DNA of 64,000 nt, taken from Octopus sinensis. Taxonomy: Eukaryota. The translations under genes were made by a program, and so were the position numbers. Below the pieces are notes generated by a model, which saw only the letters and a program-made list of their open reading frames with translations, ran no database searches and was not told where the DNA came from. The stretch covers positions 128,898,001 through 128,962,000 of the forward strand of contig NC_043000.1 in assembly GCF_006345805.1 (NCBI RefSeq). Reading direction: 5' to 3'. Below, one piece after another: positions 620-62,405 of the stretch (position 1 is its first letter; the number at the start of each line of letters is the position of its first letter).

Positions 620-1018
620 CGGATTTTTTAACCCAATATTCTACTCGCTATCATTATAGCCCCTCCCCGTCTCTCTGGCCAGGTAACCGTGTACCTCCTC
701 TGTAGCAAGACACCTATTTCTACCTCTCTGTTATACTCTAACCTTTCATCATCTGACACAAGATCACCTTCTCCAATGTTCCCTCCCCCTCTCAAAAATT
801 CCTTGTCTTCCAAGTTACTTGGTGATCCTGCCGGTGTTGGTGGTATGTAAAAAAAACATCCAGTCCATACTGTGAAGTGGTTGGCATTTGAAAGGGCATC
901 TAATTGTAAAAACCATGCCAAAACAGACAGTAGCCTGGTGTAGTCTTCTACCTGGCCAGCTCCTGTCCAACCGCCCAACCCATGCCAGCATGGAAAGCGG
1001 ACGTTAAACGATAATGAT
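620..1018 (+). mobile_element. SINE-like retroposon remnant with RTE-type 3' tail
   Basis: Ends in ACCCATGCCAGCATGGAAAGCGGACGTTAAACGATAATGAT (stem-loop plus GAT-type tail), recalled as a cephalopod SINE 3' end. 5' boundary approximate. Confidence 0.55.
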
Positions 1019-1149
1019 ATCTGTGTGTGTGTGTGTACATACAAATATATATACATATTTACATAGTTACACACACACAAACACTCTCACACACACAAAT
1101 ACACATACATGACATGAAACTGAAGCAATTTATGTTAATAATAATGTAA

Positions 1150-1712
1150 GCTCTGTGCATAAAATTTGTCCTACAAAGGAAGTCCAATGGTCAAAAGATA
1201 TTATACCCAAAGTTAGAAAAGTTCTGAGACGAAGAACAAAGCTCATAAATCGTTTAAATGTACACCAAACTATGGACAGTGATGCATCTCACTTAAAAGT
1301 ATGCGTTCAGAAATCGAGAAAAATATTTTCAACATCGCAAAGGAAGAACTCAGAACAGGAATCCAAGGGTGTAGAAATTATAGGTTTAAAGACTCTAACT
1401 TTTGCTATAAATTCATAAAAGAATCGATTTTAGAGCCTCTAAAGGATCAAGTGAAATACTGAATGAACGAATCAAAAACGTTTGCATAGCCCCGATGCGA
1501 CACAGATAAATAAAGTAGAAAAACTCTACAACACTCAATACGAGGAAGTGGCAACCATCAGTTACATCGATATAAAGGAAGTTATAATATGAGAAATATA
1601 ATATCAGAAATTAAATGACCTGATATTAGTGAGAAGGTTTGAAGGGTTCCCAAATAATTCTATTGAAACATGTAAAAAGGGCCTAGCAAAACCAGTTAGA
1701 ATACTTTGCATG
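1150..1712 (+). pseudogene. Decayed CR1/L2-group LINE ORF2, linker region upstream of RT
   Basis: Frameshifted translation gives IIPKVRKVLRRRTKLINRL ... GFEGFP ... TCKK.LAKPVRIL, resembling the GPDGFP..LKxCKxxLAxPL segment before the CR1 RT domain. Confidence 0.55.
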
Positions 1713-2115
1713 TATAAAGAATTTCAAAGAAATGTTCTATGCACGAGGGAAGAAGTAGAGAAGGATGCAATACACGCATACGCACGCGCACTTTGTATAT
1801 ACAAAAATACACGCACACTCTATGTTGTAATATATACGTATGCTCGACAAATACTATTTGTGTGTCTGATGAAATGTTGCATAGAGGTTCTGAGATATTG
1901 CATTAATGAAATGCACGTTGGAATGACTCTGTTGAAATATCAATGATGTTCTCCTGTTGTTTTTCTTGTGTGTGTTTGTGTGTGTGTGAGTGTGTGTGTC
2001 TGTGCGCATGTGCCTTTTACTTGTTTCAGTCGTTTTTTAGCCCTACATACATACGTACGTACATACATACATACATACAGTCATTCATACATACATACAT
2101 ACATACATACATACA

Positions 2116-2149
<34 letters not shown>

Positions 2150-2652
2150 CATACATACATACATACATATATATAAAGAGGCCCAGATGTTGATGTTGAA
2201 ATTCCAATGACGAAGCCTTGGATCTAGGTTAGAAACAGGCTCTTTCTCTAGAAAGAAATTGAACAATGATATATATATATATGATATATGATATGATATG
2301 ATGTGATATGCCCCATATAAGATGAAAGATGACCAATAACACATGTAAGGAATGTATTTATATGGAAAGATGCTTTTTCAATTTAGAAGTTTGATGTTAT
2401 CAAAAGACTTGACCACATCATATAAATACATTCCTTACGTTTGTTATTTTTTGTGTTTATTTCTTATGCCATACGTGCTCGATGATGATCGCTCTTATAG
2501 TCAACTCTCCACCTCTGCACTGCCTAACCTTAATGAAAAAGCTGGAGTTGAAGATTCGTATTTCTTTGAGCACTACTCGGTGACTATGCTTCGCATACAT
2601 AATCATTTTATAACCCATTTTTCACACACACACACACACACGAACTTACTCC

Positions 2653-3070
2653 TCTGACTTCGTATCAGGAAAGTCATGGAACAAATTATCAAAGGGTAAC
2701 TAATTACGTTCTTAGAAGAAAATGATTTATTAGCTGGTGCTCAGCACGCTTTCGGTTCAGCTAGTAGCTACCACAAACAGGTCTTATACCATCATTCAAA
2801 TATAGATGCCATATATCTCGACTATGGAAATACCTTCGACAACGTTGCTCATGAAATGATGTATTCTAAATTACGTGATCTCGAAATGGTTTGACAAGTA
2901 TGAGAATAGAATGGCCGCATGTCTTTTTAAGAGACATAAGTCAGGCGGTTGCATCCAACGGTGCTCTTTGAAACGTGGCATTGCCTCTGAGTGAATCCAT
3001 CTAGGGGCAATCATAAGACCATTACTCTCTCTCTAGTAGCTTCCTCAGACATGCTCTCAGTTAAACAAGC
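2653..3070 (+). pseudogene. Decayed CR1/L2-group reverse transcriptase fragment
   Basis: Reads GKVMEQIIK..LITFLEENDLLAGAQHAF ... NIDAIYLDYGNTFDNVAH, matching KVMExII / QHGF / DAIYLDFxKAFDxVxH motifs, with stops and frameshifts. Confidence 0.8.
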
Positions 3071-3399
3071 AATCAGTTTAGCTTGTCCTCGTGAGAATGA
3101 ATATTTTCAGTTATATGGGGATATTTATTCTCATTGTGTAGAGAACTGCTCCCAAAAGAAATAACACATAAGAAAGCAAAACAATAGAATCAAAGAATTT
3201 TAAAACAAATATTAACGAGCACAAACAAACAGTAAATCGAAAAGAAAATGACATTTTAACAAAAAAAAAAAAAAAGCCTAAAAGACAACACAGTTGCGAA
3301 GCGCCATCGTTCGCTAACGTACTTTTGAACAAGAAAACCCTAGATATGCAACTTTTTGATGAAAGAATCAAAGCATGTCAATCTTTTGTCTACAAGACG

Positions 3400-3930
3400 G
3401 ACACCAGCATTTCACAATTTATCAAAATTGCGCGAAATGATGAAAGTAATGCAATTGTGCCTTGTTAAAGGCACGGAGGATTTCCTTGTTCCATTGATAA
3501 GAGATTTAAAGAAAGCCTCAGCGGACTTGTTAAGTGAAATCTCCTTTATTGGGATGGAAGAGGGAGTATGGCATCATAAGCATCACTTTTGATTTTAGCC
3601 GAAATTGTACATGGCACACCTGCCCATGAGCTAGTTCCTCAATATTTGATAAGAAGAAGCGCAAGAGTCACAATCAGAGACATCGGCAGCAGTTTTGATC
3701 CCTGGCTCTCAGTCACTTTTGTGGTACAATATTGTCAGGTGATTAGCACCGGTGTAATGTTTCGTGGTATGCTGTGGGAAGGGGGTCAGCATGAACATGC
3801 AAGTCCCCGTGTCTTCGCTAGACCACAAGGCAATACCAGAATGGTATCCTGTGGAAGGAGTTGAGAGAAACTTGGCATCCAAAGCAGAAACCCCTGTTGC
3901 GACAAATGCTGCGGTAAAAACCAAATTAAA
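3400..3930 (+). mobile_element. Possible decayed L1/Tx1-type ORF1 fragment
   Basis: Non-repetitive segment; ORF 3589-3864 (LVPQYLIRRSARVTIRDIGSSFDPWL..FVVQYCQV) loosely resembles LINE ORF1 RRM-like regions. Weak resemblance only. Confidence 0.2.
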
Positions 3931-4697
3931 AGCTTTCTAGCAATAAAGAGTAAAAGGACAAAGACAGCAACAAATCCTGAAGACTGGTGGTTCTATGCAG
4001 CAGTGCAGCATTAAGTGGCACAGATAAAACTCTTGAGTAGTCAAAATGATTAATTAAATAAATAAACGTCCCGTCCTCATTACCAGGCACTAACAGAAAA
4101 ACCTAAGGACTCTTCTAGATTAAAACCAGTGGAGATAATGAGCGATCGAAAACAACACAAGCAACAGCAAGAACTAAATTATCGGGAAACCACACTTCGT
4201 AGCAGAATCACCGCATTCATTTATAGAAACGGGGAACAGAGACCGAAAGAGACGGGAAAACTTTTCCCGAAAGAAAATAGATTACCCAGTTCCTCTCATT
4301 TAGTCAGTTCTTCTTTCACTGGTCCTAATCGTTGGATTGGGGTATTGCATTCAATTAGTTGGATGATTATTGGCCCCAGTACTTATTCCAGTAGGGTGCA
4401 TATTTTATCTAGATTTCTATTGGGCGAACAACTGATGTGTAGGACACACATAACCACGATACAGCATAAACGAAACACGCAAATATTTATATATTTTGCG
4501 CAACATAGCGTGAATATAAAGGAATGAAATTATTTTTTTAGATATTAGGAAAGACTAGCTGTGAGTGTAAACACATTCTTCTTATGCTTTCGATGTTCGG
4601 AAAAAAAAAGAGGGGAGTATCTTCAAGGTGAAACACAGTATGGCTGCGATTAAATAACTGGAATATCTAAATGTGTGTGTGTGTGTGTTTATATATG

Positions 4698-5760: not shown

Positions 5761-6144
5761 CTTCATATTCTTATCTTTCTCCCCCCCCACTACCATTGCA
5801 TTTCTTTCTATCTTCTTTCTACCATGAGTTCTCTTTTAATTCATTAGTGGAAAACTAATTACCCTTCCTCCTTTTTCCCCCACCTCCACGAGCTCCCTCC
5901 CCCCCTCCAACGCACCGCCATAATTACAGTAGTGCAACAACATAAGCAATGGCAGCAGCTATAGCAACAGTTGTAGTAGTAGTGGTAGTAGCAGCAGCAG
6001 CAACAACAACAACAACAACAACAATAACAACGGCAGCAACAGCAGTAGCAGCAGCGGAGCCTCCTTATGGTCATACGACCTGTTAGAAACAGCAACTAAA
6101 ATCTCTCTGAATAAAGTCTCATCTTAAAATACAACCTCACATAC

Positions 6145-6179
<35 letters not shown>

Positions 6180-6229
6180 CACACACACACATGTGCATGT
6201 GTATGTATGTGTATATGTATATACATACA

Positions 6230-6261
<32 letters not shown>

Positions 6262-6613
6262 AACACACACACATATATACATGCATGCATACATATATAT
6301 ATATTCATATATGTATGTGTATAGTATAAATATATATATGTGTGTGTGTGTGTGTGTGTTTCTGCATATATACATGTATATATATAAACACACCGTGTGT
6401 ATGTGTGCACAGATATACAGGCTTACACATGCATATATTTATACATATGGACACATACAAACACTTCGCAAAAAGTGAATGAATCATATTGGAAACGCGC
6501 GCGCGCAGATGCATGCACACACATATATGCATGCATATATATGTATGCAAGCACACACACGAACACATTTATGAACAAAGAAAACAAGAGAGAAAGAGAG
6601 GGAGGGGAGAGAA

Positions 6614-15120: not shown

Positions 15121-16140
15121 TATCTCTTGGCATAAATCACATGTGGTGGTCTTGATACAGAGATATACTATCGCACAGAGAAGGGAAGTGTTGCATTTGG
15201 AAAGCTCGAAAAGAGAGTATGGGCGGATAGAGGTATTTCCCTGCAGACAAAAACCAGTGTCTATGAAGCGTGTGTATTGACTGCACTTCTTTATTCAAGT
15301 AAGACGTGGACCACTTACAATCATCATATAAAAATGCTGGAGAGATTTCATCAAAAGTGCCTCAGACGTATCTTAAGAGTAAAGTGGGAATGTTTCGTAC
15401 TAGATACAGAAGCTTTGCGCATGGCACGTTGTAACTCAATTGAACAACATGTATTCTTGGCTCAAGTGAGATCAATTGGACATATTATTAGAATGACAGA
15501 TGAGTGATTATTAAAGCGTCCTTTTTATGGTGAGCTTAAGTTTGGTAAGCGACCACAACATAATCCGAGGAAAAGGTATAAAGACTGTGTGTAGGAAAAC
15601 CTGAAGAAACTAGATATGAACAAAAGCGATTGGGAAAATGTGGAGAGGTGCTGTTAGGACTGGTTACAAATCCTGGTAGGAAAAGATGATACAGCTGTCT
15701 GAGCTTAAAAGGGCCTGTCGCAAAGGAACGACTGGAGCTGTAATCATCAGTAAACATTGGAAATGTATTATATGTGATCGTATTCTGTTGTCAAAAGCAG
15801 GATACGTAAATCATGAAAATTGAAATGGTAATAATCTTGGACACCAACCGCCTCTTACTACTTGTGTCATATGTCACAAAATTTGAAAGACAATATCTGA
15901 ACTTAAAAGACATACGCTAGTTCACAAAAATGTTCCTTCACAATCAGATTCCAAAAGGCAAAGATATAGAAGAAACTTGAATAAATATCTGTCACTAGTG
16001 TTGTAAGCCCTGTCAGTCAGCAGCTGGTCTTAAAAGACATCTGAGGGCTCATCAGCGGAGTGATTGTGCTGTGTGATGGGGTGTGGTGTGTGTGTTAATG
16101 GGACGGCTATCATCTGTCAAGATGAAGCAATCATCATTAT
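15121..16140 (+). pseudogene. 5'-truncated decayed RTE-clade LINE (post-RT region plus three C2H2 zinc fingers)
   Basis: AFGKLEKRVWADRGISLQTKTSVYEACVLTALLYSSKTWTTY..LERFHQKCLRRILRVKW..IGHIIRMTDE..FYGEL; then CIICDRILLSKAGYVNH, CVICHKI*KTISELKRHTLVH, CH*CCKPCQSAAGLKRHLRAH; short CAT-type tail. Confidence 0.92.
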
Positions 16141-30078: not shown

Positions 30079-30815
30079 GGCGGCGAGCTGGCAGAACCGT
30101 TAGCACGCCGGGCGAAATGCGTAGCCGTATTTCGTCTGCCGTTACGTTCTGAGTTCAAATTCCGCCGAGGTCGACTTTGCCTTTCATCCTTTCGGGGTCA
30201 ATAAGATAAATACCAGTTAAGCACTGGGGTCGATGTAATCTACTTAATCCGTTTGTCTGTCCTTGTTTGTCCCCTCCGTGTTTAGCCCCTTGTGGCTAGT
30301 AAAGAAATAGGTATTTCGTCTGTCTTTAAAGGGCAGCGAGCTGGCAGAACCGTTAGCACGCCGGGCGAAATGCGTAGCCGTATTTCGTCTGCCGTTACGT
30401 TCTGAGTTCAAATTCCGCCGAGGTCGACTTTGCCTTTCATCCTTTCGGGGTCAATAAGATAAATACCAGTTAAGCACTGGGGTCGATGTAATCTACTTAA
30501 TCCGTTTGTCTGTCCTTGTTTGTCCCCTCCGTGTTTAGCCCCTTGTGGCTAGTAAGAAATAGGTATTTCGTCTGTCTTTAAAGGGCAGCGAGCTGGCAGA
30601 AACGTTAGCACGCCGGGCGAAATGCGTAGCCGTATTTCGTCTGCCGTTACGTTCTGAGTTCAAATTCCGCCGAGGTCGACTTTGCATTTCATCCTTTCGG
30701 GGTCGATTAAATAAGTACCAGTTACGCACTGGGGTCGATGTAATCTACTTAATCCGTTTGTCTGTCCTTGTTTGTCCCCTCTATGTTTAGCCCCTTGCGG
30801 GTAATAAAAAAAACA
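30079..30815 (+). mobile_element. Tandem trimer of family A SINE
   Basis: Copies start at 30079, 30332 and 30584; whole array flanked by TAATCTTGTCAA (30067-30078, 30821-30832). Confidence 0.95.
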
Positions 30816-44751: not shown

Positions 44752-44788
<37 letters not shown>

Positions 44789-45080
44789 CAATTTAGGGTA
44801 GCAAAAAATTCAGTAAAAATTTATCGCTACCAGCGGCCTGATGGAAAAGAGAAAATAGTCAAAGACTAAATATGTATAAATGTAACAATTTAGGAATGGC
44901 CTAAACAGGCCATTCGTCCACCAGAAATTGATAATTTTCTGACTAATTCTGAGATTGAATCGGCAGTTTATATTTGCTGCCGATAAGTTTGGCGCGAATG
45001 CGTTGGTCTTGAAAATTTTAAGACAGATATTCCCGAGGCATTGATACAGTCGCCTCGTGTATATCCGTCTCTCCCAGGTT

Positions 45081-45180
45081 TCTTTTACTGATGAAGTGTG
45101 ACCTATGGTAGACTAGCTTAATTTAATTTAATTAAGCTGGTCTATCATTAAAGACACTAAACGATGCATCGTATAAAAGA
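45081..45180 (+). ncRNA. Type I hammerhead ribozyme, copy 1 (G of GAAA missing in this sequence)
   Basis: TCTTTTA CTGATGA AGTGT...ACACT -AAAC GATGCATC GTA TAAAAGA. Confidence 0.75.
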
Positions 45181-45550
45181 TGAATTAGGGTAAATGTTTT
45201 TAAATTTTCACCTTATTTCCGAATTACACTACTTGGCGGTTGGAGTTCTGGCTGCTCTTTCTGGTGGACGAATGGCTGTTTAGGCCATTCCTAAATTGTT
45301 ACATTTATACATATTTAGTCTTTGACTTTTTCTCTTTTCCATCAGGCCGCTGGTAGCGATAAATTTTTACTGAATTTTTTGCTACCCTAAATTGATTAAT
45401 TGATAATTTTCTGACTAATTTGAGATTGAATCGGCAGTTTATATTTGCTGCCGATAAGTTTGGCGCGAATGCGTTGGTCTTGAAAATTTTAAGACAGATA
45501 TTCCGAGGCATTGATACAGTCGCCTCGTGTATATCCGTCTCTCCCAGGTT

Positions 45551-45651
45551 TCTTTTACTGATGAAGTGTGACCTATGGTAGACTAGCTTAATTTAATTTA
45601 ATTAAGCTGGTCTATCATTAAAGACACTGAAACGATGCATCGTATAAAAGA
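45551..45651 (+). ncRNA. Type I hammerhead ribozyme, copy 2 (intact)
   Basis: Helix I TCTTTTA/TAAAAGA; CTGATGA 45558-45564; helix II AGTGT/ACACT with 19-bp extension; GAAAC 45629-45633; palindromic helix III ACGATGCATCGT; cleavage triplet GTA 45642-45644. Confidence 0.93.
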
Positions 45652-46021
45652 TGAATTAGGGTAAATGTTTTTAAATTTTCACCTTATTTCCGAATTACAC
45701 TACTTGGCGGTTGGAGTTCTGGCTGCTCTTTCTGGTGGACGAATGGCCTGTTTAGGCCATTCCTAATTGTTACATTTATACATATTTAGTCTTGACTATT
45801 TTCTCTTTTCCATCAGGCCGCTGGTAGCGATAAATTTTTACTGAATTTTTTGCTACCCTAAATTGATTAATGATAATTTTCTGACTAATTCTGAGATTGA
45901 ATCGGCAGTTTATATTTGCTGCCGATAAGTTTGGCGCGAATGCGTTGGTCTTGAAAATTTTAAGACAGATATTCCCGAGGCATTGATACAGTCGCCTCGT
46001 GTATATCCGTCTCTCCAGGTT

Positions 46022-46121
46022 TCTTTACTGATGAAGTGTGACCTATGGTAGACTAGCTTAATTAATTTAATTAAGGTCTATCATTAAAGACACTGATGAA
46101 AACGATGCATCGTATAAAAGA
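46022..46121 (+). ncRNA. Type I hammerhead ribozyme, copy 3 (indels)
   Basis: Same motif with ACACTGATGAAAAC in place of ACACTGAAAC and a deletion in the helix II extension; GTA at 46112-46114. Confidence 0.7.
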
Positions 46122-46242
46122 TGAATTAGGGTAAATGTTTTAAAATTTTCACCTATTTCCGAATTACACTACTGGCGGTTGGAGTTCTGGCTGCTCTTCT
46201 GGTGGACGAATGGCCTGTTTAGGCCATTCCTAAATTGTTACT

Positions 46243-46274
<32 letters not shown>

Positions 46275-49563: not shown

Positions 49564-49652
<89 letters not shown>

Positions 49653-49856
49653 ATTATAATTAAGGGTATCCAAAAGATAGCATCATGCTAGATGCTAGAT
49701 AAAGCAGTCTAAACTTGACTCAAAAACCACATCAAAAATTCATGAGTACCGCCTTTTGTCGAACAAATCGACAGCAGGACTTATTCATACATACATGCAT
49801 ACATGCATGCATACATACATACATATATACATGCATGCAAGCATACATACAGACAT

Positions 49857-51701: not shown

Positions 51702-51753
<52 letters not shown>

Positions 51754-52043
51754 GTATCAATAATAACAAAGGGTAAAATTAATTAATTAACTAGTAATCA
51801 ATAATTTCACCAAGTAGAATTCGGCATGAAAAAGCACCATTTCGCGGTAAATTAAAGTAATACTTTATAATAGGGTTCAACAAAGATTTGCTTTACCACA
51901 TACCGAAGTTTAGAAATAGCAGCCAAAAGACCTTAGCTATTTCCTCTACCTTAAAAAGAGGCTCCCAGACAAAAACAAATTACTCGAAAACAATCCACGA
52001 AGGCAGAGAGGAAAAATAACGAAAATCAATCGATATTTGATTA

Positions 52044-52126
52044 CCCATGTACGCGTTTCGGAATTAGATCGGTATAAAGAATGTATAATTTATACTTTTC
52101 CCGAACATTTTTTTCATCAGCATGGG
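52044..52126 (-). ncRNA. Type I hammerhead ribozyme, base of helix II decayed
   Basis: Minus strand CCCATG CTGATGA aaaaaatgtTCGG...CCGAtctaattcc GAAAC GC GTA CATGGG; perfect 6-bp helix I, palindromic ACGCGT helix III. Confidence 0.8.
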
Positions 52127-52376
52127 ACTTCACAATATTAAATATTAAAAATATTAAATTCGAAGGCACTGGAAGAATTGAACATATCTCTCCAACTAAC
52201 AGTATCAGACAGATCATATCCAACGTCAGTACCGCCGAATTTCTTTATACTTGTACATTATACAATCCTTAAGCTTGGTGTCAGTAGCCATACCCTAGTT
52301 TGTGAAAAAAATACAAAATTCCTTGTATAGAAATGTGTGCTAGCAGGGGGAACGAACTCTCTAGCGGGTAACCAGA

Positions 52377-52425
52377 TCGCGAGACTTACTCAGTTTCGAG
52401 CTATTTGACTTATCCTCAGTCGCGA
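52377..52425 (-). ncRNA. Minimal type I hammerhead ribozyme, weak helix II
   Basis: Minus strand TCGCGA CTGAGGA taagtcaaatagctc GAAAC tgagtaa GTC TCGCGA. Confidence 0.7.
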
Positions 52426-52990
52426 GCACCTGCATGCCAGAGTGTTGCACCGATAACCAGCTGGTGGAGAATCTGCATGGAGTTAAACCAGTAGTGACAT
52501 TCAACAGCCACTTTGATGTGGCAACTGACTTTACTGTTTAGTACAGTTAATACTATATCTTTTCTTGAGATTTTACAACTAGCTATTTTGCTTTATATAT
52601 ATATATGTAGGCAAACAGATCGAACCATCTCAAGACTAACTGCCCGAAATGGTTGTGACTTCTGAACTTAACTGAGGAAAGAAAGCCACGAATGACCCGT
52701 CTTTTTTGCCTGTCCTAATTGTTGTTTCTCTTGTCCACCTTTGTATCGTCTATCTATCCGAATGTTTTAATGTCCTCTATTATCAGGTGTCCAGCATGGA
52801 ATTAAAACATTCAAAGGTAATAAATGTTATTAAAATTATAATTTAGGCTATCTAAGAGATACCACCACACTGGAAATAGCAGCCAAAACTTGACTCTAAA
52901 ACCACATTAAATGTTCATACAGCACCAGGAGAGAAGACAAAGAGACAAAATAAACTAGCAAAAAAATTACTGGATAATTCCAGATCCCGG

Positions 52991-53021
<31 letters not shown>

Positions 53022-53048
53022 GAAAAAAGCAACAAGAATGGATTAAAA

Positions 53049-53137
53049 TCTCGGTACGATCGTTTCGTACGAGGACATCTTTAATAAGCTACAAAAAATG
53101 CAGTGAATACAGATGGCTCGTACTCGTCAGCCGAAAA
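53049..53137 (-). ncRNA. Type I hammerhead ribozyme (intact, minus-strand copy)
   Basis: Minus strand TTTCGG CTGACGA GTACGAG...CTCGTAC GAAAC GATC GTA CCGAGA; perfect 7-bp helix II, palindromic ACGATCGT helix III. Confidence 0.9.
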
Positions 53138-53152
53138 AACATCAGAGAACAT

Positions 53153-53241
53153 TTTTCGGCTGACGAGTACGAGCCATCTGTATTCACTGCATTTTTTGTA
53201 GCTTATTAAAGATGTCCTCGTACGAAACGATCGTACGGAGA
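53153..53241 (+). ncRNA. Type I hammerhead ribozyme (plus-strand copy, one helix I mismatch)
   Basis: CTGACGA 53160-53166, GTACGAG/CTCGTAC, GAAAC 53224-53228, GTA 53233-53235, then CGGAGA. Confidence 0.85.
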
Positions 53242-53519
53242 TTTTAATCCATTCTTGTTGCTTTTTTCCTATTGTAATCACCCCACTTGTCGTATGGTTA
53301 ACACCATATAGATTTCCGGTGCATCCTAGTTAAGGACCATTTCATGTGAATTCTTTAGAATTCACTAGAATCTCAATTACTTAACCGTATAATATATATA
53401 TATTATATATTATATATATATATATATAAAGATAGATCGATACATAAATAGATCTACATATAACACACATACACACAAATTCTGAACTTAAAGATGCAGC
53501 ATTACTTCCGATTTGAAAA

Positions 53520-61222: not shown

Positions 61223-62405
61223 TGTGATGCTTACACTGCCTTAGGATTGACAGTCAATCTCAAGAAAACTGTTGTCATGCATCAACCTGCCCCTGGTAAG
61301 CAGTATAGTGTACCAAATATCTATGTGAATGGTAAACGACTTGATGTAGTCGATCAGTTTGTTTACTTGGGAAGCACTATTAATAGATATGGCAATGTGG
61401 ATGATGAAGTTCCATATAGAATTAGGAAAGCAAGTGTTGCTTTCGGAAGGCTAGAAAAGCGTCTCTGAAGTCGGCGAGACATATGCAGAAAGACAAAGAT
61501 AAAGGTGTACAAGGCTTGCGTGCTCCCTTCTCTTCTCTATGCCTGCGAGACGTGGGTCACATATCGATACCACCTTAAACATCTGGAACGTTTCCATCAG
61601 ATGTGCCTCAGACGGATCTATAGCATTAAGTTGAAGGACCGTATCAGTGATCTTGAAATACTCGAAGGCTCTCGGTGTGTAAGTATAGAAGCTCTTCTGT
61701 TGAAGCAAAGGCTCAGATGGAGTGGTCATCTGGTCAGAATGAAGGATTCAAGGATGCCAAAACAACTCTTTTATGGAGAGTTAGCTAAAGGAGAACGACC
61801 TCCACATAAACCAAAAAAGAGGTATAAGGACTTGCTGAAGGCTTCCTTAAGAGATGCTTGCATCTCTCCTGACCCATGGGAAGGCATAGCTATTGATCGT
61901 AGCAGGTGGAGAAGGATTGTGCATAAGGGGACAGCCACGTTTGAGAAATCTTGAGTTGCACATGAGAAAGTAACGAGGGATATCAGGAAGGGCATCGATG
62001 TTAAACTTCCAGAAGGGAAGGGTCTTCCTTTGATTCTGACATGCAATGTCTGTGCAAGACCCTGCCTCAGTAAAGCTGGACTCATGAGTCATCTTCGTAG
62101 TCATAAAACGAGACAGATGATTGACAACCTGGCCACTGGTGGTGGTGTAACACACCATACAAATCATATCTGTCGGGCATGTGGAGGAGAGTGTAATTCG
62201 GCATGAGGACTTAAACGACATGCAAAGGTACATGAATCCCAGTTACAACTACAGCCGGCTATTACCAGTAAAGGTCTTAGTTGCCAATTTTGTACAAGAC
62301 ATTGTAGATCTTTAGCTGGGCTAAAAAGTCACATTCGATCACAGCACCAGTAACAGTTAAGCTTCGTGCAATGGCAATACTCGATAACGAGGGGGCAGCC
62401 ATAAT
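61223..62405 (+). pseudogene. 5'-truncated RTE-clade LINE: end of RT region, three C2H2 zinc fingers, 3' UTR
   Basis: One frame, no frameshift, three internal TGA stops: LGLTVNLKKTVVMHQPAPG..FVYLGST..ASVAFGRL..LLYACETW..RLRWSGHLVRM..PKQLFYGEL; fingers [63 protein letters not shown]; TAA at 62351-62353; 3' stem-loop CTCGATAACGAG. Confidence 0.95.

What the first reader, a model, noticed from the sequence alone, without database searches (positions are those of the whole stretch)
51760..53390. Hotspot: four hammerheads of three unrelated families in 1.6 kb of TA-punctuated DNA
Seen: HHRs at 52044-52126 (-), 52377-52425 (-), 53049-53137 (-) and 53153-53241 (+), with different helices but the same type I topology, among TA runs near 51716-51752, 52593, 52995-53020 and 53390. 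Established: some Penelope-like clades target TA microsatellites. Inference: repeated insertion of a diverse radiation of ribozyme elements into one TA tract.
Basis: partly seen in the sequence, partly recalled or inferred. Interest (0 to 1): 0.75.

Follow-up and report, generated by a model that had tools for sequence, protein, structure and literature searches.

The report
Pile-up of Penelope-type insertions at TA
The four ribozyme motifs are real but belong to three separate jumping-gene insertions of different ages (two motifs are the mirror-image arms of one young Penelope-like element), which likely sit together only because such elements are very abundant in this genome and favour TA repeats, so this is an ordinary example of a known kind.

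Summary
The last two are a 121-nt, 99% inverted repeat: one insertion (53018-53388) of the 3' end of a young Hydra-clade Penelope-like element, whose full 5.2-kb RT-endonuclease copy I found elsewhere in the genome. The other two belong to older non-coding 592-nt and 360-nt retrozyme-like families. Only one motif (53049-53136) is intact; none reaches an Rfam threshold. TA targeting holds (25 of 26 copies of the young family, against 6.5% of random sites). A special hotspot is not shown: hammerheads occur about once per 47 kb genome-wide, and neighbours of other families are no commoner beside these elements (13 of 101) than beside any TA tract (27 of 264). Hydra elements in octopus TA repeats are in print, and this scan reported the same kind repeatedly on other DNA of this genome. 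Of remaining interest: paired, fixed insertion ends about 117 nt apart.

The parts
51716..51752 (.). (TA)n tract at the 3' end of element A
51757..52242 (-). Element A: 5'-truncated copy (486 nt) of a non-coding family with a head-to-tail unit of about 592 nt (retrozyme-like)
   Evidence: 3067 first-look candidates, top copies 87-94%; period 578-600 nt in most partial tandems; longest ORF in one unit 82 aa
52044..52126 (-). Hammerhead A, type I, long stem II, palindromic stem III; family has A.C at the base of stem II and this copy has lost the next G-C pair (52112); likely inactive
52243..52337 (.). Segment X: internal fragment of an unrelated repeat with a CAGTGG terminus (DNA-transposon-like, label recalled), no hammerhead, not TA-associated
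   Evidence: 645 candidates; flanks; 0 of 11 at TA; rest of X absent from the window
52338..52442 (-). Element B, inverted arm, carrying hammerhead B
   Evidence: X/B junction bridged by contigs of two other runs
52377..52425 (-). Hammerhead B, type I, extra U after A9 as in its family, first stem II pair lost in this copy
52438..52592 (+). Element B, direct arm to the family 3' end; old non-coding family with a unit of about 360 nt
   Evidence: 1584 candidates; period 343-370 nt; longest ORF 61 aa
52594..52605 (.). (TA)n tract between B and F
52610..52781 (+). Element F: 3' part of another repeat family, lacking its last about 25 nt; carries a conserved hammerhead-core-like word at 52672-52701 that does not fit the descriptor
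   Evidence: 1817 candidates
52780..52994 (-). Element E: fourth hammerhead family, lacking about 32 nt at its 3' end and truncated at its 5' end inside the hammerhead
   Evidence: 4575 candidates; full motif in 8 of 14 other loci
52977..52994 (-). Remaining 3' half of hammerhead E (stem III, AUC site, 3' strand of stem I)
52995..53020 (.). (TA)n tract, left target half of the CD insertion
53018..53149 (-). Inverted arm of the Hydra-clade insertion, ending at the proximal fixed site 117 nt before the family 3' end
53049..53136 (-). Hammerhead C, identical to the family majority, 7-bp stem II, palindromic stem III; the only intact one
   Evidence: fold z -3.37
53152..53388 (+). Direct arm of the same insertion: pLTR 3' end with the 117-nt tail
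   Evidence: 96-98% to both pLTRs of full element L112
53154..53241 (+). Hammerhead D, second copy of C with a private C-to-G change at 53237 that breaks stem I
53388..53428 (.). (TA)n tract, right target half of the CD insertion

Best explanation
This stretch is a stack of five truncated copies of different repeat families (four with a hammerhead motif) plus one unrelated fragment, likely inserted at different times by Penelope-like reverse transcriptase-endonuclease proteins that favour TA microsatellites. Shown: the C/D pair is one insertion of the 3' end (pLTR) of a Hydra-clade Penelope-like element; A and B are copies of non-coding head-to-tail units; family 3' ends abut TA repeats; inverted arms stop at a fixed site 112-118 nt before the 3' end. 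Inferred: the endonuclease nicks (TA)n, both target strands prime reverse transcription at two fixed internal sites of an uncleaved or circular RNA, giving head-to-head arms with a one-sided tail; A, B and E borrow such enzymes in trans; each insertion leaves TA on both sides and so keeps the target alive; later deletions with short microhomologies made the TA-free junctions (A/X, X/B, F/E). The hammerheads are passengers of the elements, and the cluster has no function of its own.
For: One-event structure of C/D repeated in 16 of 28 copies picked by the tail alone. Full element L112: 483-bp direct pLTRs 99.4% alike around a 1105-aa ORF with DKT, CxCX5C and CxxC motifs; YRDD and CxH in sister copies L113-L115 and L071, matching the Hydra description and Hydra-1_Obim by eye. 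19,348 first-look candidates for this endonuclease. TA at 3' ends (26 of 28). No top hit of any family search spans a junction between families. About 58,000 intact motifs genome-wide, range 29,000-92,000. With a 10-20% chance of a neighbour per element, 10-170 chains of five are expected. 27 of 28 direct arms run through the cleavage site and 0 of 28 stop within 5 nt of it, in line with uncleaved templates in vitro (PMC11167929).
Against: Under a plain Poisson model five library fragments in 1.63 kb are rare (0.01-0.07 expected genome-wide; three hammerhead insertions 7-20), so the explanation needs the TA-sharing effect. The first CD set had more neighbours than TA tracts do (8 of 26, P 0.006), although 15 new loci gave 0 of 15 (where some masks were wide) and the pool P 0.11. 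B and F abut pure TA in only 8 of 17 and 4 of 11 copies. No partner enzyme is shown for A, B, E or F. Family loci are top-scoring hits, so biased to young copies; the background is only 560 kb and the library 26 entries. No tree of the RT was built; Pfam and PDB sequence searches found nothing.
Confidence: 0.8

Rival explanations
1. True hotspot: one TA tract attracts repeated nested insertions beyond what TA targeting alone gives (for instance an element or its hairpin draws the next one).
For: Other-family fragments are 3.1 times commoner in element flanks than in random DNA (33 against 10.5 expected, P 2e-8); several CD copies have another family just across the TA tract; B, F, E and CD can be read around one ancestral tract.
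Against: The excess disappears against a TA-matched control (13 of 101 against 27 of 264); 0 of 15 in the replicate set; A is separated by non-TA DNA; the window has fewer TA tracts per kb than the sample (0.78 against 1.29).
Confidence: 0.13
2. One or two compound events: the RT jumped between RNAs of several families and captured X as filler, so the array is a chimera made at once.
For: TA-free junctions with 2-3-nt microhomology at A/X, X/B and F/E; the rest of repeat X is absent from the window; template jumps are proposed for Penelope elements (PMC3846280).
Against: Family ages differ widely; F and E face each other tail to tail and both lack their normal 3' ends, as a deletion of an intervening tract would give; CD has TA on both sides.
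Confidence: 0.05
3. Functional locus: a host RNA processed by several ribozymes, or a hairpin source of small RNAs.
For: The C/D arms fold into a near-perfect 118-bp hairpin, -235.6 kcal/mol; the X/B junction is held in two runs labelled as other organisms.
Against: Three of four motifs have private disabling changes; the hairpin would sequester both C and D in a read-through RNA; the same hairpin exists in more than half of the family's copies; no host ORF near.
Confidence: 0.02

Closest known systems
Hydra clade of C-terminal-endonuclease Penelope-like elements, e.g. Hydra-1_Obim (Craig et al. 2021, PMC8557442: passages, section 11 and supplement rows read)
   Same: RT then GIY-YIG-type endonuclease in one ORF, DKT, CxCX5C, CxxC and CxH motifs, hammerhead with long stem II near the 3' end, (TA)n target, inverted 5' copy and one-sided tail; already listed for an octopus with (TA)n preference.
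   Different: 5.2 kb instead of under 3 kb, owing to a long Asn-rich linker and a 3' UTR of about 1.3 kb; RWR in place of RWK; tail 117 nt instead of 30-40 nt; clear 483-bp pLTRs.
Metazoan non-LTR retrozymes (Cervera and de la Pena 2020, PMC7229834, passages; Li, Clavereau and Pollet 2026, bioRxiv 10.64898/2026.07.22.740005, part 1 of 5)
   Same: Non-coding head-to-tail units with one type I hammerhead; mismatch at the base of stem II also seen there (U.U in axolotl HHR_Amex2); proposed non-autonomous partners of Penelope-like elements.
   Different: Family A unit (592 nt) is longer than the about 300 nt given; copies seen here are partial tandems with inverted arms in TA repeats rather than long arrays; circular RNA not tested.
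Hammerheads in pLTRs of Penelope-like elements (Cervera and de la Pena 2014, PMC4209133, parts 1-2 of 4)
   Same: Extra nucleotide after A9, palindromic short stem III, many divergent families per genome, and pairs 100-700 bp apart on opposite strands are all described there.
   Different: Motifs here are larger, with full stem I and long stem II; many have a non-paired 10.1-11.1 position where that paper reports a conserved G-C.
Poseidon element PAc of Anolis, two internal RT start sites (Frangieh et al. 2024, PMC11167929, parts 1-2 of 4)
   Same: Two fixed internal ends bounding a tail; hammerhead cleavage not needed for insertion.
   Different: Here the two ends are 112-118 nt apart, lie upstream of the ATG, are used one per arm, and both sit at short TA-like words, whereas PAc starts at a site without homology to the cut DNA.

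Membership tests
Type I hammerhead ribozyme | Core CUGANGA / GAAA / NUH with three stems, stem I open | tested here: met
   C fully; A and B have core and stems I and III but a broken stem II base; D has a broken stem I
Type I hammerhead ribozyme | Compensatory changes among related sequences | tested here: met
   Stem I differs but stays paired in sister families of A, CD, E and G; rows were found by a descriptor that asks for stem I, so the shuffles carry the test; no sister family for B
Type I hammerhead ribozyme | Rfam covariance-model score at gathering threshold | tested here: not met
   Best 18.9 bits against 52 for B; none for A, C, D
Type I hammerhead ribozyme | Self-cleavage | not testable with these tools
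   Only contigs, no raw reads, were offered
Hydra-clade PLE (CD family) | Single ORF, RT then C-terminal endonuclease, flanked by pLTRs | tested here: met
   L112: pLTRs 1325-1807 and 6048-6530, ORF from 1855; RT read from motifs and by eye against Hydra-1_Obim; 22 homologues, mostly 35-42% identical
Hydra-clade PLE (CD family) | DKT, CxCX5C linker, CxxC and CxH around E and N | tested here: met
   ADKTG, CNCRIKSKC, CQLC, CIH
Hydra-clade PLE (CD family) | N-terminal RWK motif | tested here: inconclusive
   RWR at the matching place
Hydra-clade PLE (CD family) | Canonical hammerhead in the pLTR and (TA)n target | tested here: met
Hydra-clade PLE (CD family) | Generally under 3 kb (typical, not defining) | tested here: not met
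   5206 bp
Hydra-clade PLE (CD family) | Placement in the Hydra clade on an RT tree | not tested
   Reference proteins were seen only in a paper supplement
Non-LTR retrozyme (A, B) | Non-coding unit with one type I hammerhead | tested here: met
   Longest ORF 82 and 61 aa; Hydra protein hits in 1 of 33 A loci and 0 of 33 B loci
Non-LTR retrozyme (A, B) | Head-to-tail repeats, at least two whole units with hammerheads | tested here: inconclusive
   Periods of about 592 and 360 nt seen as partial tandems; no two whole direct units among the loci examined
Non-LTR retrozyme (A, B) | Unit-length linear and circular RNA | not testable with these tools
   No RNA holder on record
Naiad PLE | N-terminal endonuclease, no canonical hammerhead | tested here: not met
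   Endonuclease is C-terminal and a hammerhead is present (definition)

The most novel reading that the evidence does not exclude
Hydra-clade elements and their non-coding parasites insert by obligatory twin priming: a dimeric enzyme lets both strands of a cut (TA)n tract prime at two family-specific TA-like words about 85-118 nt apart (CD 112-118, A 103-105, E 81-88) on an uncleaved or circular RNA, which would explain the Penelope inverted-arm-plus-tail structure and show base-pair-guided priming, unlike the one element tested in vitro.
Probability: 0.35. Interest if true: 0.5.

Novelty: new member of a known kind. Interest (0 to 1): 0.25.

Why it matters
The cluster itself matters little: it is what a genome with tens of thousands of TA-targeting Penelope-type insertions should hold in tens to hundreds of places. 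Its use is as a pointer to a very young, high-copy Hydra-clade family with near-complete ORFs and sharply fixed paired ends, a good substrate for the open question of how Penelope-like elements make inverted, tailed insertions and whether their hammerheads do anything for them. It also shows that Rfam models miss nearly all hammerheads of this genome.

Tried and rejected
Rfam scans: whole window gave only microsatellite-driven microRNA matches among the 150 of 193 rows shown; the interval gave one weak hammerhead match. Own covariance model: MAFFT could not align motifs with different stem II lengths; model R1 had 4 pairs, missed A, C and D, scored B at E 1.6 and recovered only training rows at E below 0.1, so it is uninformative. 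Pfam and PDB searches of the ORF found nothing. First neighbour count used a library contaminated by flanks and was replaced; the E row was on the wrong strand and was replaced. Expression: no RNA holder listed, contigs only; no empty-site allele was seen, which shows nothing. Idea that hammerhead-cleaved RNA is the template: 0 of 28 copies end at the cleavage site. Idea that A and B insert into repeat X: the flanking parts of X are not in the window. F as a fifth canonical hammerhead: core-like word conserved in several families but no stem I. The paper on small Penelope-linked hammerhead variants that cleave as dimers (recalled, Lunse et al. 2017) is not held, so whether the F word or the non-paired 10.1-11.1 position is described there is open. 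Supplements of the 2026 bioRxiv preprint were not seen and may list cephalopod families.

Full report
Setting. The window is G000:C4:128898001-128962000 of a 2.72-Gb animal genome, rich in microsatellites and without an evident host ORF near the finding. Homologue names and earlier notes point to a cephalopod; this is an inference.

Observation. The fourth, 53154-53241 (+), is the same sequence as the third: arms 53018-53138 and 53152-53272 are a 121-nt inverted repeat, 99% alike. It fails the descriptor because a private C-to-G at 53237 breaks stem I. A has a private change at 52112 in stem II and B has lost its first stem II pair. Only C folds better than shuffles (z -3.37; A -1.06, B 0.13, D -2.03).

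Anatomy. Searching the genome with each piece resolves the interval into TA | A (-) 51757-52242 | X 52243-52337 | B inverted 52338-52442 and B direct 52438-52592 | TA | F (+) 52610-52781 | E (-) 52780-52994 | TA | C arm and D arm 53018-53388 | TA. Each piece is a separate family with 645 to 4575 first-look candidates (not copy numbers), and no top hit spans a junction between families. E is a fourth hammerhead family, complete in 8 of 14 other loci but cut inside the motif here. F carries a core-like word conserved in several families that does not form a canonical hammerhead. X belongs to a repeat with 0 of 11 termini at TA. The A/X, X/B and F/E junctions have no TA, only short microhomologies. 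The X/B junction is bridged by contigs of two runs labelled as other organisms, so it is not an assembly artefact.

The CD family. One copy led upstream into an endonuclease ORF; that protein has 19,348 candidates in the genome. Locus L112 holds a 5206-bp element: 483-bp direct pLTRs (99.4%) around a 1105-aa ORF. Its motifs (RWR, DKT, CxCX5C, CxxC; YRDD and CxH in sister copies) are those given for the Hydra clade (PMC8557442 section 11) and line up by eye with Hydra-1_Obim, listed there for an octopus with (TA)n preference and a long-stem-II hammerhead. The window insertion is 96-99% like the pLTRs. The family is very young: 34 of the top 40 hits are 100% identical over about 110 nt.

Families A and B. 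A repeats head to tail with a period near 592 nt and B near 360 nt; longest ORFs are 82 and 61 aa; Hydra protein hits lie in 1 of 33 A loci and 0 of 33 B loci. They work like non-LTR retrozymes (PMC7229834; bioRxiv 2026); full membership (two whole units, circular RNA) is not shown. A and E share a 16-nt block and, with family G, a 15-nt motif, so 'unrelated' is too strong for them; B and CD show no link.

TA targeting. (TA)3 within -6 to +18 of the family 3' end: CD 25 of 26, A 15 of 18, B 8 of 17, F 4 of 11, X 0 of 11, random 1819 of 28,000, E 9 of 14. Dropped before counting as duplicates or overlaps: L007, L013, L025, L050, L057, L058 and the window's own loci, L233 and L250. All are top-scoring copies.

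Is it a hotspot? Intact motifs occur once per 47 kb, about 58,000 genome-wide. Fragments of other families are 3.1 times commoner in the flanks of these elements than in random DNA (33 against 10.5), with B (1 against 1.8) and control X (0 against 1.0) showing no excess. Against the fair control, plain TA tracts, the excess goes: 13 of 101 element loci and 27 of 264 tracts have another family within 200 nt (P 0.46); CD alone gave 8 of 26 (P 0.006), then 0 of 15, pooled P 0.11. A plain Poisson model makes five fragments in 1.63 kb rare (0.01-0.07 genome-wide), while a 10-20% neighbour chance gives 10-170 such chains. The cluster is a real local excess explained by a shared target; a special hotspot or a single tract is not shown.

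Mechanism. Shown: inverted arms end at a fixed site, 117-118 nt before the 3' end in 16 of 18 arms and 112 nt in 2; 16 of 28 copies picked by the tail alone have such an arm (only arms ending in the last 200 nt were sought); A uses 103-105 nt and E 81-88 nt in several copies, B varies. Both CD ends lie at TA-like words of the element. 27 of 28 direct arms run through the cleavage site and none stops within 5 nt of it. From the literature: inverted 5' copies and one-sided tails are typical of Penelope-like elements (PMC8557442; PMC3846280 passages), opposite-strand hammerhead pairs were noted in 2014 (PMC4209133), and a Poseidon enzyme starts at two internal sites without needing hammerhead cleavage (PMC11167929). 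Inferred: nicking of (TA)n, priming by both strands at the two sites, use of A, B and E in trans, later deletions. Fold-back self-priming (proposed in PMC3846280) remains an alternative for the inverted arm, but does not by itself explain the fixed outer end. In a read-through RNA the arms would pair into one hairpin, which would likely silence both C and D.

Novelty. Hydra elements in octopus TA repeats, pLTR hammerheads and retrozymes are in print. Searches for octopus plus hammerhead ribozyme, retrozyme plus cephalopod and octopus plus Penelope plus microsatellite returned no paper on these particular families; a 2026 octopus repeat annotation counts Penelope-like families but never uses the word ribozyme (PMC13282606 passages). 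This scan has already reported the same kind, including pile-ups and paired ends, on other DNA of this genome (230 notes fit the look-up, 8 shown); nothing overlaps this place. Verdict: real, ordinary for this genome, new members of known kinds; interest 0.25.

Noticed in passing
window 44785-46256: A second hammerhead array (family G): about three head-to-tail 471-nt units at 95-98% plus an inverted arm at 44785-44927, TA at both ends, intact motif at 45551-45651, longest ORF 68 aa; a clearer retrozyme than A or B.
   Followed up: partly
window 52672-52701; L021, L132, L206: The word CUGA(G/A)GA-N11-GAAUGACCCGUC is kept across several families at a hammerhead-like position but has U at 15.1 and no clear stem I; possibly a core variant.
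   Followed up: partly
L122, L135, L143, L156, L170, families A and E: Many hammerheads of this genome have a non-paired 10.1-11.1 position (A.C, G.G, A.A, U.C): 7 of the 12 background hits scored best that way.
   Followed up: no
L112:1855-5169: The Hydra ORF has an Asn-rich linker of about 400 aa between RT and endonuclease, like the Asn-rich inserts described in rotifer Penelope elements (PMC3846280); Pfam finds no domain in it.
   Followed up: no
L113:86-1522 and L115:8377-9501: Other Hydra-type families (44% identical RT) lie within a few kb of CD copies.
   Followed up: no
window 49649-49743: A further fragment related to family E (74%), just beyond a long TA tract.
   Followed up: no
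window 30079-30812: Three tandem 252-bp units at 96%, SINE-like by recall.
   Followed up: no
window 61330-61954 and 15136-15507: Fragments of an RTE-type non-LTR retrotransposon ORF (label recalled).
   Followed up: no
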